A stretch of DNA of 64,000 nucleotides. Source: Escherichia coli (GTDB taxonomy: Bacteria > Pseudomonadota > Gammaproteobacteria > Enterobacterales > Enterobacteriaceae). Positions 5,512 through 61,616 of this stretch are shown here, piece by piece. The stretch lies in NCBI RefSeq assembly GCF_050920415.1, contig NZ_CP169309.1, one strand, 5' to 3'. Every line of letters begins with the position of its first letter. The first letter of the stretch is position 1. The position numbers and the translations under genes were made by a program. Under the pieces are notes generated by a model, which made no database searches, was not told the DNA's origin, and saw only the letters and a list, made by a program, of their open reading frames with translations.

Positions 5512-5628
5512 GCGATGTCGCCCGTAGGCCGGATAAGATGCGTCAGCATCGCATCCGGCATTGCGGACAGGGTAACAAATGTGCCATTCAAGTCAGATGC
5601 GGCGTGAACGCCTTATCTGACCTACGTT
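5512..5628. repeat. BIME: two REP (palindromic unit) copies in opposite orientation
   Basis: gtaggccggataag...gcatccggc and gtcagatgcggcgtgaacgccttatctgacctac. Confidence 0.7.
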
Positions 5629-8776: not shown

Positions 8777-8810
8777 AAGATCGTGCAAATTCAATATATT
8801 GCAGGAAGTA

Positions 8811-8841
<31 letters not shown>

Positions 8842-8871
8842 TCTACCCCGGTTTCCCAGATTGCAGGCATG

Positions 8872-10119
<1,248 letters not shown>

Positions 10120-20640: not shown

Positions 20641-20667
20641 AGGCCCGCTCTGCGGGTCTTTTTTTCG
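20641..20667 (+). terminator. fbaA terminator (hairpin + T7), copy 1
   Basis: aggcccgctctgcgggtc followed by ttttttt. Confidence 0.6.
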
Positions 20668-20681
20668 CCAAAAGAAAAAAT

Positions 20682-20779
20682 GCCTGATGCGCTACGCTTA
20701 TCAGGCCTACACGTATCCTGCAATATATTGAATTTGCAGGTTTTTGTAGGCTGGATAAGGCGTTAAAGCCGCATCCAGT
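20682..20779. repeat. BIME: REP - L motif - inverted REP; contains an unoccupied IS621-type target ATCAGGC-CT-AC at ~20700-20710
   Basis: gcctgatgcgctacgcttatcaggcctac + cctgcaatatattgaatttgcagg + tgtaggctggataaggcg...; same arrangement as the site occupied by the IS at 8814-10094. Confidence 0.75.
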
Positions 20780-20807: not shown

Positions 20808-20832
20808 GAGGCCCGCTCTGCGGATCTTTTTT
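20808..20832 (+). terminator. near-identical second copy of fbaA terminator hairpin + T run
   Basis: aggcccgctctgcggatc + tttttt; ~48-bp direct repeat flanking the BIME. Confidence 0.5.
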
Positions 20833-33839: not shown

Positions 33840-33990
33840 AAAGCCCTCACCGAAGCGAGGGCTTGAAGGAGAAGGGTTATGATGCGACTCGTCATCATAC
33901 TGATTGTACTGTTACTCATAAGTTTCCCAGCTTATTAACAGTCAGTCACAGGGGAGGAGCAATCCTCCCTTACCCTTACTCACTAAATTA
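33840..33990 (-). ncRNA. sibC: Sib-type antisense sRNA (antitoxin) overlapping ibsC; ends approximate
   Basis: Established arrangement for Ibs/Sib loci; hairpins flank the ibs ORF on both sides. Confidence 0.45.
33879..33938 (+). CDS. ibsC: type I toxin Ibs, 19-aa hydrophobic peptide
   Basis: Manual translation MMRLVIILIVLLLISFPAY; below ORF-track size cut-off. Confidence 0.65.
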   Translation: MMRLVIILIVLLLISFPAY

Positions 33991-34038
33991 GGTCAAAGAA
34001 TCAACGATGTCAATCAGGGCGATGCAGGTGTGTCGCCC

Positions 34039-34659: not shown

Positions 34660-34845
34660 AGGGAATCTCCGAGATGCCGCCGCAGGCTGTAACCCTTGAA
34701 CCCTTGGTTCAAGGTGAATGTGTCGTCACAGTTTTAAGGCTTCTCGGACGGACCGAGCATGCTCACCAACCGCGGAGCGCCACATTCTTGTGGTATGAAA
34801 TATCGGCTCAGGGGACTGGCCCGCTTGCGAACATCTCAGAGAAAT
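34660..34845 (-). ncRNA. ssrS: 6S RNA
   Basis: Reverse complement reads atttctctgagatgttcgcaagcgggccagtcccctgagccgatatttcatacc...ggagattccct, matching my recollection of E. coli 6S RNA. Confidence 0.9.
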
Positions 34846-48144: not shown

Positions 48145-48310
<166 letters not shown>

Positions 48311-59696: not shown

Positions 59697-61616
59697 ATGA
59701 ATAAGTTTATCGCTGCTGAAGCTGCGGAATGTATAGGCTGTCATGCTTGTGAAATTGCCTGTGCGGTGGCACACAATCAAGAAAACTGGCCGCTGAGTCA
59801 CAGTGACTTTCGACCGCGTATCCACGTTGTAGGGAAAGGCCAGGCTGCGAATCCGGTGGCCTGTCATCACTGCAACAATGCTCCTTGCGTTACGGCTTGT
59901 CCGGTTAATGCTCTGACTTTCCAGCCCGATAGCGTACAACTGGACGAGCAAAAATGTATTGGTTGTAAAAGATGCGCAATCGCTTGCCCCTTTGGCGTCG
60001 TTGAGATGGTCGATACGATTGCGCAGAAATGCGACCTTTGTAACCAGCGCAGTTCCGGCACGCAAGCCTGTATTGACGTATGCCCAACACAGGCGTTACG
60101 GCTGATGGACGATAAAGGGTTGCAGCAGATAAAGGTGGCCCGCCAGCGCAAAACGGCAGCAGGAAAAGCGTCATCAGACGCTCAGCCATCTCGCAGTGCA
60201 GCGTTGCTCCCCGTTAACTCGCGTAAAGGCGCAGATAAAATTTCAGCGAGTGAACGGAAAACCCACTTTGGCGAAATTTATTGCGGGCTGGATCCACAAC
60301 AAGCGACTTATGAGAGTGACCGCTGTGTTTATTGCGCCGAAAAAGCTAACTGCAACTGGCATTGCCCGCTGCATAACGCTATTCCGGATTACATCCGTCT
60401 GGTGCAGGAAGGAAAGATTATTGAAGCGGCAGAACTTTGCCACCAGACCAGTTCCTTACCAGAAATCTGCGGCAGGGTATGTCCACAGGACCGTCTTTGT
60501 GAAGGCGCATGTACTTTGAAAGATCACTCTGGCGCAGTCTCTATCGGTAATCTGGAGCGCTACATCACCGATACTGCGTTGGCGATGGGCTGGCGTCCCG
60601 ATGTCAGCATGGTGGTTCCCCGTATCGAAAAAGTGGCGGTGATTGGCGCTGGGCCTGCAGGATTAGGGTGTGCTGATATCTTGGCGCGCGCGGGAGTTCA
60701 GGTTGATGTCTTTGATCGCCATCCAGAAATTGGCGGTATGCTGACTTTTGGCATTCCTCCTTTCAAACTCGATAAAACAGTCTTAAGCCAGCGGCGAGAG
60801 ATATTCACCGCAATGGGAATCGACTTTCATCTCAACTGTGAGATTGGCCGCGATATTACCTTTAGCGATTTAACTTCTGAATATGATGCCGTTTTCATCG
60901 GCGTGGGGACTTACGGGATGATGCGAGCAGATTTGCCGCATGAAGATGCGCCCGGTGTCATTCAGGCTCTACCGTTCCTGACTGCCCATACCCGCCAGCT
61001 CATGGGGTTGCCGGAGTCTGAAGAGTATCCGCTGACGGATGTGGAAGGTAAGCGAGTCGTGGTATTGGGCGGTGGCGATACGACCATGGATTGTTTGCGG
61101 ACTTCCATCCGCCTCAATGCCGCCAGCGTGACCTGCGCGTATCGTCGTGATGAAGTCAGTATGCCGGGCTCGCGCAAAGAGGTGGTCAATGCGCGCGAGG
61201 AAGGTGTCGAGTTTCAGTTCAATGTTCAGCCGCAATATATCGCTTGTGACGAAGATGGGCGTTTAACTGCGGTGGGCCTGATTCGTACAGCCATGGGTGA
61301 GCCGGGGCCGGATGGTCGCCGTCGTCCTCGTCCGGTAGCGGGTTCAGAGTTTGAGCTGCCCGCCGATGTTCTGATTATGGCCTTTGGTTTCCAGGCGCAT
61401 GCCATGCCGTGGTTGCAAGGCAGCGGAATTAAGCTCGATAAATGGGGCCTGATTCAAACCGGGGACGTCGGGTATTTACCCACCCAGACGCATCTGAAAA
61501 AAGTCTTTGCTGGTGGGGATGCAGTTCATGGCGCGGATCTGGTTGTCACTGCAATGGCCGCAGGAAGGCAGGCGGCGCGCGATATGTTAACTCTGTTTGA
61601 TACGAAGGCATCGTGA
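59697..61616 (+). CDS. ygfT: Fe-S/FAD oxidoreductase (GltD-like with N-terminal 4Fe-4S ferredoxin domains) (639 aa)
   Basis: ORF 59682-61616; start at [22 protein letters not shown]; multiple CxxCxxCxxxCP motifs. Confidence 0.85.

What the first reader, a model, noticed from the sequence alone, without database searches (positions are those of the whole stretch)
20700..20710. Additional REP copies in the window are candidate IS621-type target sites
ATCAGGC-CT-AC, identical to the occupied target, is present in the fbaA-mscS BIME (~20700-20710). One-mismatch variants occur in REPs at ~5515-5535 (ATCCGGCCTAC on the minus strand) and ~48150-48165 (ATCATGCCTAC on the minus strand). These are natural landing sites if the element or a repaired copy is active.
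Basis: inference. Interest (0 to 1): 0.3.

Follow-up and report, generated by a model that had tools for sequence, protein, structure and literature searches.

The report
Free IS621 landing site in REP
The 11-base motif between fbaA and mscS is a genuine, unoccupied landing site for the bridge-RNA-guided insertion sequence IS621, and 52 other E. coli genomes carry IS621 at exactly that spot, but this is already-known biology.

Summary
ATCAGGCCTAC lies at 20700-20710 (+) in the tail of a REP in the fbaA-mscS BIME. One-mismatch copies lie in REPs at 5524-5534 (-) and 48147-48157 (-). The IS621 copy in the window (8814-10092, -) sits in a target that reconstructs to the same 11-mer, and its bridge RNA still encodes that target.

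- fbaA-mscS site: occupied in 52 genomes, at the predicted base and in the predicted orientation. At least two IS621 variants are involved.
- trhA-ygfZ site: occupied in 33 genomes. All five I sampled carry the perfect ATCAGGCCT, not the window's ATCATGCCT.
- speB REP (ATCCGGCCTAC): never occupied.
- The window's own occupied tkt-prohibitin site: only 8 genomes.

The resident copy has a one-base homopolymer frameshift, which may be an assembly error. The nearest complete genome holds an otherwise identical intact copy.

IS621 targeting of REPs at this 11-mer was published by Choi et al. 2003 and Durrant et al. 2024. The finding is correct but ordinary.

The parts
20700..20710 (+). Unoccupied perfect IS621 target ATCAGGC-CT-AC. 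Predicted insertion is after the CT core, between 20708 and 20709, with the IS left end towards fbaA.
   Evidence: Exact match. Orthologous site occupied in 52 genomes. Junction sequences read in RMDEC465 and SE11.
20682..20712 (+). REP (palindromic unit) carrying the target in its tail: GCCTGATGCGCTACGCTTATCAGGCCTACA.
   Evidence: Sequence and REP census. Matches the REP query GCCTGATGCGCTACGCTTATCAGGCCTACG used by Durrant et al..
20703..20745 (-). BIME linker between the two inverted REPs.
   Evidence: Rfam RF02751 ES036, 47.3 bits against a gathering score of 37.6.
20745..20778 (-). Partner REP of the BIME in inverted orientation. Its tail ATCCAGCCTAC (20746-20756) has two mismatches to the IS621 target.
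   Evidence: Inverted repeats. Two-mismatch scan.
8814..10092 (-). Resident IS621 copy, 1279 bp including one CT core. It has a one-base deletion in a CCC run at about 9298.
   Evidence: Ends read. Annotated as a frameshifted IS110-like IS621 family transposase in the near-identical record. Alignment to intact copies. Pfam DEDD_Tnp_IS110 only in the 215-aa ORF; the intact sibling also has Transposase_20.
9901..10078 (-). Bridge RNA gene in the IS621 left end. Left target guide AUCGGGCCU at 10029-10021; right target guide GUAG at 10001-9998.
   Evidence: Sequence compared with the published 177-nt bridge RNA. It differs only at the first and last base and inside the inner stem-loop of the target-binding loop. 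Predicted fold -64.2 kcal/mol, z = -4.0.
10093..10101 (-). Left half plus core (ATCAGGCCT) of the occupied target.
8812..8813 (-). Right half (AC) of the occupied target.
48147..48157 (-). One-mismatch REP tail ATCATGCCTAC (position 5 G>T) between trhA and ygfZ. The locus is a natural IS621 site in its G allele.
   Evidence: naRNA4 Rfam hit at 48150-48227. 33 genomes occupied. 5 of 5 sampled have ATCAGGCCT.
5524..5534 (-). One-mismatch REP tail ATCCGGCCTAC (position 4 A>C) downstream of speB. No evidence of use by IS621.
   Evidence: 0 of 5,426 genomes hold the predicted junction.
61272..61282 (-). ATCAGGCCCAC inside a coding ORF. The CT core is broken, it is not a REP and it is not a target.

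Best explanation
**What it is.** Positions 20700-20710 are the tail of a REP in the fbaA-mscS BIME. They are a bona fide, currently empty attachment site for IS621.

**How it works.** IS621 is an IS110-family element. It excises as a circle and expresses a bridge RNA from its left end.
[quoted passage not shown] - A second loop holds the element's own joined ends (ACAGTAT-CT-TG).
- The DEDD/serine recombinase exchanges strands at the CT core. The element therefore lands between 20708 and 20709, with its left end facing fbaA.

**Shown here.**
- The motif, its REP context and the intact guides in the resident copy.
- Natural occupancy of the orthologous site in 52 genomes.

**Taken from the literature.** The pairing and strand-exchange mechanism (Durrant et al. 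2024).

**Inferred.** That an insertion could happen in this strain. The nearest genome has an intact sibling copy that could supply recombinase and bridge RNA in trans.

**The one-mismatch REPs are much poorer substrates.** The trhA-ygfZ locus is used elsewhere only in its perfect allele among those sampled. The speB REP is not used at all.
For: - Exact motif at the stated coordinates.
- REP/BIME anatomy.
- The occupied target reconstructs to the same 11-mer.
- Bridge-RNA guides are intact in the resident copy and the region folds into the expected three-domain shape.
- A synthetic left-junction query matches full-length in 52 of 5,426 genomes. The right-junction query matches the same 52, about 1,280 bp away.
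- Annotated intact IS621 lies between fbaA and mscS in RMDEC465, SE11 and strain H3. Exact junctions ATCAGGCCT|TGTATT and ACAGTATCT|ACACG were read.
- The RMDEC465 and SE11 copies differ at 32 positions, and their flanks also differ, so there were at least two independent insertions.
- Durrant et al. 2024: wild-type IS621 hit 173 sites in BL21(DE3), of which 144 were in REPs and 129 were ATCAGGCCTAC. Position-4 tolerance is explained by rG:dT pairing. The bridge RNA works in trans.
- A BL21-lineage genome has the same motif at this locus.
- An intact sibling copy sits next to glpD in the nearest genome, which shows 10 IS621 matches.
Against: - No experiment was done in this strain.
- The resident copy is frameshifted as assembled.
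- The window is 99.98% identical, not identical, to the nearest complete genome. The presence of an intact sibling in the true source strain is therefore by proxy.
- The 52 occupied genomes are not phylogenetically independent; only two or more events are demonstrated.
- 52 of roughly 3,770 BIME-bearing genomes is about what a uniform spread of copies over some 130 sites would give, so the site is not a hotspot.
- The exact 50-mer in Durrant's natural-target list (seq214) cannot be assigned uniquely. The tkt site of RMDEC465 has the same 25+25 nt flanks.
Confidence: 0.9

Rival explanations
1. The motif is only the REP consensus tail, kept for REP/BIME functions such as RNA stability, gyrase or IHF binding, or RAYT-mediated spread. 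Its match to the IS621 target has no practical consequence at this locus.
For: - The 11-mer is the consensus tail of one REP class (REP query sequences quoted).
- The whole BIME is a presence/absence polymorphism unrelated to IS621.
Against: - IS621 is found at exactly this base in 52 genomes.
- The two views are compatible: the IS evolved to exploit the REP.
Confidence: 0.05
2. All three REPs, the perfect one and both one-mismatch ones, are comparably good landing sites.
For: - Durrant's natural-target list for the IS621 guide includes a few ATCATGCCTAC and ATCCGGCCTAC sites (seq53, 54, 395, 519, 520, 658, 834).
- The trhA-ygfZ locus is occupied in 33 genomes.
Against: - The speB REP junction is found in 0 of 5,426 genomes.
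- All 5 sampled trhA-ygfZ insertions sit in the perfect G allele.
- In the experiment, 96.2% of insertions went to ATCAGGCCTAC or ATCGGGCCTAC, and mismatch tolerance is described as low.
- About 575 of 834 natural IS621-guide targets contain TATCAGGCCTAC. ATCCGGCCTAC sites belong overwhelmingly to a different element whose guide encodes that sequence. That element has no match in the E. coli genomes searched.
Confidence: 0.07
3. The sites are moot in this strain because its IS621 is dead: the recombinase is frameshifted.
For: - The ORF is cut to 215 aa and loses the Transposase_20 domain.
- It is annotated as a pseudogene in the nearest record.
Against: - The window and the 99.98%-identical record carry different single-base homopolymer deletions in the same copy (CCC at about 9298 versus GGGG at about 9163). 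Each is intact where the other is broken. This pattern is typical of assembly error.
- The nearest genome has an intact, otherwise identical copy next to glpD and 10 IS621 matches in all.
- Recombinase and bridge RNA act in trans.
Confidence: 0.1
4. The 52 occupied fbaA-mscS sites descend from one ancient insertion, so they do not show repeated targeting.
For: Many of the 52 share identical junction identities and similar chromosomal positions, which suggests clonal groups.
Against: - RMDEC465 carries the window-type IS621 variant and SE11 the canonical one, with 32 differences.
- The flank haplotypes also differ.
- The three RMDEC465 copies are identical to each other, which indicates a recent burst in that genome.
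Confidence: 0.1

Closest known systems
IS621 (IS110 family) REP target site, as defined by Choi, Ohta and Ohtsubo 2003 (J Bacteriol 185:4891) and Durrant et al. 2024 (Nature 630:984)
   Same: - Identical 11-nt target ATCAGGCCTAC with a CT core, located in a REP tail.
- The same bridge-RNA guides are present in the resident element.
- Natural insertions occur at the predicted base and in the predicted orientation.
   Different: Nothing of substance. This is one more instance among the 272 natural target clusters and 129 experimental sites already catalogued. The resident element is a sequence variant: 32 differences from the SE11 copy, and a different inner stem-loop in the target-binding loop.
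IS1397 / ISKpn1 (IS3 family), which also insert specifically into REP/BIME palindromic units
   Same: REP/BIME sequences serve as specific insertion targets.
   Different: That is a protein-directed DDE transposase that inserts in the REP loop. It has no bridge RNA, and no such element was seen in the window.
IS110-family element whose bridge RNA encodes ATCCGGCCTAC (245 natural targets in Durrant et al., Supplementary Data 2)
   Same: Its programmed target equals the speB REP tail at 5524-5534.
   Different: It is a different element with a different bridge RNA. No megablast match was found in 5,426 E. coli genomes, so it is not a realistic invader here.

Membership tests
IS621 natural target site | 11-nt match to ATCAGGCCTAC (or ATCGGGCCTAC) with an intact CT core at positions 8-9 | tested here: met
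   Exact match at 20700-20710. The 5524 and 48147 sites each have one non-core mismatch. The 61272 site has a broken core.
IS621 natural target site | Complementarity to the left and right target guides of the bridge RNA of an IS621 present in the genome | tested here: met
   The resident copy encodes AUCGGGCCU and GUAG unchanged. Position 4 forms rG:dT according to Durrant et al..
IS621 natural target site | Located in a REP element | tested here: met
   REP head and tail plus an inverted partner. Rfam ES036 hit on the linker.
IS621 natural target site | IS621 found inserted at the orthologous position in other genomes | tested here: met
   fbaA-mscS: 52 genomes. trhA-ygfZ: 33 genomes, with the G allele in 5 of 5 sampled. 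speB REP: 0 genomes.
IS621 natural target site | Experimental insertion by wild-type IS621 recombinase and bridge RNA | not testable with these tools
   The 'WT Genomic Insertion Sites' sheet of Durrant's Supplementary Table 3 is truncated in the held copy. A BL21-lineage genome does carry the motif at this locus.
REP / BIME | Imperfect palindromic unit of about 35 nt, extragenic, in inverted pairs separated by a conserved linker | tested here: met
   It lies between the fbaA terminator-like hairpin and mscS.
IS621 (the resident element) | About 1,279-bp element with no terminal inverted repeats, flanked by CT, with a left end encoding the bridge RNA and a 326-aa DEDD plus Transposase_20 recombinase | tested here: inconclusive
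   Length, ends, CT cores and bridge RNA are met. The recombinase ORF is interrupted by a one-base deletion (215 aa, DEDD domain only). The deletion may be an assembly artefact.

The most novel reading that the evidence does not exclude
IS621 may reinsert preferentially near its donor copy.
- In strain RMDEC465, all three perfect targets in the orthologous 45-kb stretch (tkt-prohibitin, fbaA-mscS, trhA-ygfZ) are filled by sequence-identical copies.
- With 26 copies spread over roughly 130-150 sites, the chance that the other two are filled, given one is, is about 3%.
- If this is real, the free fbaA-mscS site, 10.6 kb from the resident copy, would be at elevated risk. A regional bias has not been described for bridge recombinases.
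- The evidence is a single post-hoc case. It is confounded by ancestry and by my rough estimate of the number of sites.
Probability: 0.08. Interest if true: 0.35.

Novelty: already known. Interest (0 to 1): 0.1.

Why it matters
It matters little beyond annotation. It shows that a sequence-only reader can correctly predict where a bridge-RNA-guided element will land, and that the prediction checks out in public genomes. It adds a practical nuance: only the perfect (or position-4 A/G) REP tails are realistic targets, and the Z-type REP tail ATCCGGCCTAC is not used by IS621 in E. coli. It also shows that the target sits in a BIME absent from about a third of E. coli genomes, so site availability is lineage-dependent.

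Tried and rejected
- **Rfam scan of the IS621 region**. No bridge-RNA family is reported, only REP-derived families (ES036, naRNA4).
- **Choi et al. 2003** (PMC166490) is not held in the library.
- **Durrant Supplementary Table 3.** The sheet with the BL21(DE3) insertion list is truncated in the held copy, and the bioRxiv/PMC preprint has no held supplements. I could not check whether this exact site was hit experimentally.
- **Durrant natural-target list.**
  - The exact 50-mer of the fbaA-mscS site is present (seq214). I rejected it as locus-specific proof because the tkt site of RMDEC465 has the same 25+25 nt flanks.
  - The 50-mer contexts of the speB, trhA-ygfZ and two-mismatch REPs are absent from that list.
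- **T-allele frequency at trhA-ygfZ.** A 66-nt query was uninformative because partial REP matches dominate the identity bands. It showed only that the exact T haplotype exists in other strains, and that at most 438 genomes share the flank haplotype.
- **The best partial hit of the speB junction query** turned out to be an IS621 in a perfect ATCAGGCCT site between gsk and ybaL, not a Z-type REP.
- **The ATCCGGCCTAC-guided element.** A search with its bridge RNA in E. coli genomes gave no match.

Full report
**Observation**

The 11-mer ATCAGGCCTAC occurs once in the window, at 20700-20710 on the + strand. One-mismatch copies lie at 5524-5534 (-, ATCCGGCCTAC), 48147-48157 (-, ATCATGCCTAC) and 61272-61282 (-, ATCAGGCCCAC). 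That is four matches at up to one mismatch, against 0.58 expected from dinucleotide shuffles. The last one has a broken CT core and lies inside an ORF, so it can be ignored.

The 20700 copy is the tail of a palindromic unit, GCCTGATGCGCTACGCTTATCAGGCCTACA, that starts at 20682.
- It has an inverted partner REP (arms 20697-20711 / 20745-20759).
- The linker between the two REPs matches Rfam ES036 above its gathering score.
- It lies downstream of a terminator-like hairpin after fbaA.

The nearest public record (99.98% identical over 23.9 kb) annotates fbaA and mscS on either side.

**The occupied target**

On the minus strand an IS621 copy spans 10092 down to 8814, which is 1,279 bp. Its flanks read ...GCTTATCAGGCCT | TGTATTATCC... 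and ...ACAGTATCT | ACATACTT....

The left end encodes the bridge RNA.
- Compared with the published 177-nt sequence (quoted), it differs only at its first and last base and inside the inner stem-loop of the target-binding loop.
- The left target guide AUCGGGCCU and the right target guide GUAG are unchanged.
- The region folds into a 5' hairpin plus two multi-loop domains (-64.2 kcal/mol, z = -4.0).

The recombinase ORF stops after 215 aa and keeps only the DEDD_Tnp_IS110 domain. An intact 326-aa sibling also has Transposase_20.

**Is the resident copy really dead?**

The window copy lacks one C of a CCC run (about 9298). The 99.98%-identical genome NZ_CP169399.1 has that run intact at the same locus but lacks one G of a GGGG run (about 9163). 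Two near-identical genomes with different homopolymer deletions in the same copy point to assembly error rather than two real mutations. I cannot prove this without reads.

Independently, NZ_CP169399.1 has an intact copy next to glpD. It differs from the window copy only by that one base. That genome holds 10 IS621 matches in all. Recombinase and bridge RNA work in trans. The 'if active' proviso is therefore probably satisfied in this lineage.

I built 300-nt synthetic junctions, each with 150 nt of unique flank ending in the CT core plus the first 150 nt of the IS621 left end. I searched them against 5,426 complete E. coli genomes.

| Site | 11-mer in window | Genomes occupied |
|---|---|---|
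| fbaA-mscS | ATCAGGCCTAC | 52 |
| trhA-ygfZ | ATCATGCCTAC | 33 |
| speB REP | ATCCGGCCTAC | 0 |
| tkt-prohibitin (occupied in the window) | ATCAGGCCTAC | 8 |

*fbaA-mscS*
- 52 genomes have a single contiguous full-length match to the left junction.
- The mirror-image right junction (IS right end plus 150 nt of flank) matches at 98-100% coverage in 52 genomes. Every genome also listed for the left junction shows the right junction about 1,280 bp away.
- Annotation shows an intact IS621 transposase gene between fbaA and mscS in RMDEC465, SE11 and strain H3.
- The junctions read ATCAGGCCT|TGTATT and ACAGTATCT|ACACGTATCC.
- The RMDEC465 and SE11 copies differ at 32 positions and sit in different flank haplotypes, so the site has been hit at least twice.

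*trhA-ygfZ*
- 33 genomes are occupied.
- All five that I read carry ATCAGGCCT at the junction, whereas the window has ATCATGCCT.

*speB REP*
- No genome is occupied.
- The best partial hit was an insertion in a perfect site elsewhere.

**Baseline**
- IS621-like sequence at 80% or more of full length is present in 1,635 genomes. The median is 5 matches per genome and the maximum is 28.
- About 13,000 matches spread over roughly 130 perfect sites per genome would give on the order of 100 occupied genomes per site. The site number is my estimate, taken from the 129 sites hit in BL21(DE3).
- The fbaA-mscS site is therefore an average target, not a hotspot.

**Availability of the site**

The BIME itself is polymorphic.
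- 3,718 genomes have the full-length region.
- About 1,700, including ST131, lack exactly 168 bp. That segment is the BIME plus one copy of a duplicated terminator.
- Those genomes therefore have no target at this locus.

**Mechanism**

The mechanism is established knowledge from Durrant et al. 2024.
- The excised circle joins the right and left ends and creates a promoter for the bridge RNA.
- The target-binding loop pairs its left guide with the bottom strand of ATCAGGC+CT and its right guide with the top strand of CTAC. Position 4 forms rG:dT.
- The donor-binding loop holds ACAGTAT-CT-TG.
- The recombinase exchanges strands at CT.

In their genome-wide assay, 129 of 173 sites were ATCAGGCCTAC and two were ATCGGGCCTAC. 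Together these took 96.2% of insertions, and mismatch tolerance elsewhere was low.

This fits what I see. G to T at position 5 (trhA-ygfZ in the window) and A to C at position 4 (speB REP) both give non-wobble mismatches with the guide.

In their list of natural targets, 834 sequences belong to the IS621 guide, and about 575 of them contain TATCAGGCCTAC. A further 245 belong to another element whose guide is ATCCGGCCTAC. That element is absent from the E. coli genomes searched.

**Comparison and novelty**

REP targeting by IS621 was reported in 2003 (Choi et al., cited). The 11-nt code, its RNA basis and genome-wide site lists were published in 2024. This finding is a correct application of that knowledge to one window. 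It is already known, and I rate its interest as low.

**Caveats**
- The window is not identical to any record I fetched.
- The independence of the 52 and 33 occupied genomes was tested only to the level of two or more events.
- The experimental BL21(DE3) site list could not be read. A BL21-lineage genome does have the same motif at this locus.

Noticed in passing
window 20641-20664 and 20809-20832; also ~10163-10142 (-) and ~8713-8692 (-): Both BIMEs (fbaA-mscS and tkt-prohibitin) are bracketed by a direct duplication of the neighbouring GC-rich terminator hairpin.
- At fbaA-mscS the two copies are 96% identical and 168 bp apart.
- Genomes without the BIME (ST131 for fbaA-mscS; strain 2013C-4282 for tkt-prohibitin) have a single hairpin and are shorter by the BIME-plus-hairpin segment (exactly 168 bp at fbaA-mscS).
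- The BIME cassette therefore looks like an insertion with a long (about 22-40 bp) target duplication, or a deletion between the repeats.
-.
   Followed up: partly
window ~9298 (CCC run) versus ~9163 (GGGG run) inside IS621: The window and the 99.98%-identical record NZ_CP169399.1 carry different one-base homopolymer deletions in the same IS621 copy. Each is intact where the other is broken. The 'frameshifted' status may therefore be an assembly artefact.
   Followed up: partly
L002 (NZ_CM177019.1, strain RMDEC465), locus 3.9-5.2 kb, 15.8-17.1 kb and 44.8-46.0 kb: This strain has intact, mutually identical IS621 copies at all three perfect sites orthologous to the window (tkt-prohibitin, fbaA-mscS, trhA-ygfZ) and 26 matches genome-wide. 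This looks like a recent burst and may hint at regional clustering.
   Followed up: partly
L003 (NZ_CP169399.1, glpD-adjacent IS621), left junction at locus ~1480-1489: The left flank reads ATCAGGCTT|TGTATT, that is a TT rather than CT core on the target side, while the right junction has the normal ...ACAGTATCT|AC. This could be a post-insertion C>T change or an insertion into a non-CT core. Durrant's list entry seq1 for this locus looks mis-bounded, probably for this reason.
   Followed up: no
L002 locus ~3.9 kb versus window 8803-8813: The right flank of the tkt-site insertion starts ACACGTATCC in RMDEC465 but ACATACTTCC in the window. The RMDEC465 version is identical to the fbaA-mscS right flank, so 50-nt target reconstructions cannot tell the two loci apart. 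This may reflect recombination between BIMEs or IS copies.
   Followed up: no
window 48149-48182 and 48268-48301: The trhA-ygfZ intergenic region holds two 97%-identical copies of the same REP, both with the ATCATGCC variant tail, 119 bp apart. Another REP lies between them, forming a composite BIME that matches Rfam naRNA4 above its gathering score.
   Followed up: no
window 33863-34013 (-) and 34662-34845 (-): A Sib antitoxin RNA (RF00113) and the 6S RNA gene ssrS (RF00013) are present, as expected for this E. coli region. They are unrelated to the finding.
   Followed up: no
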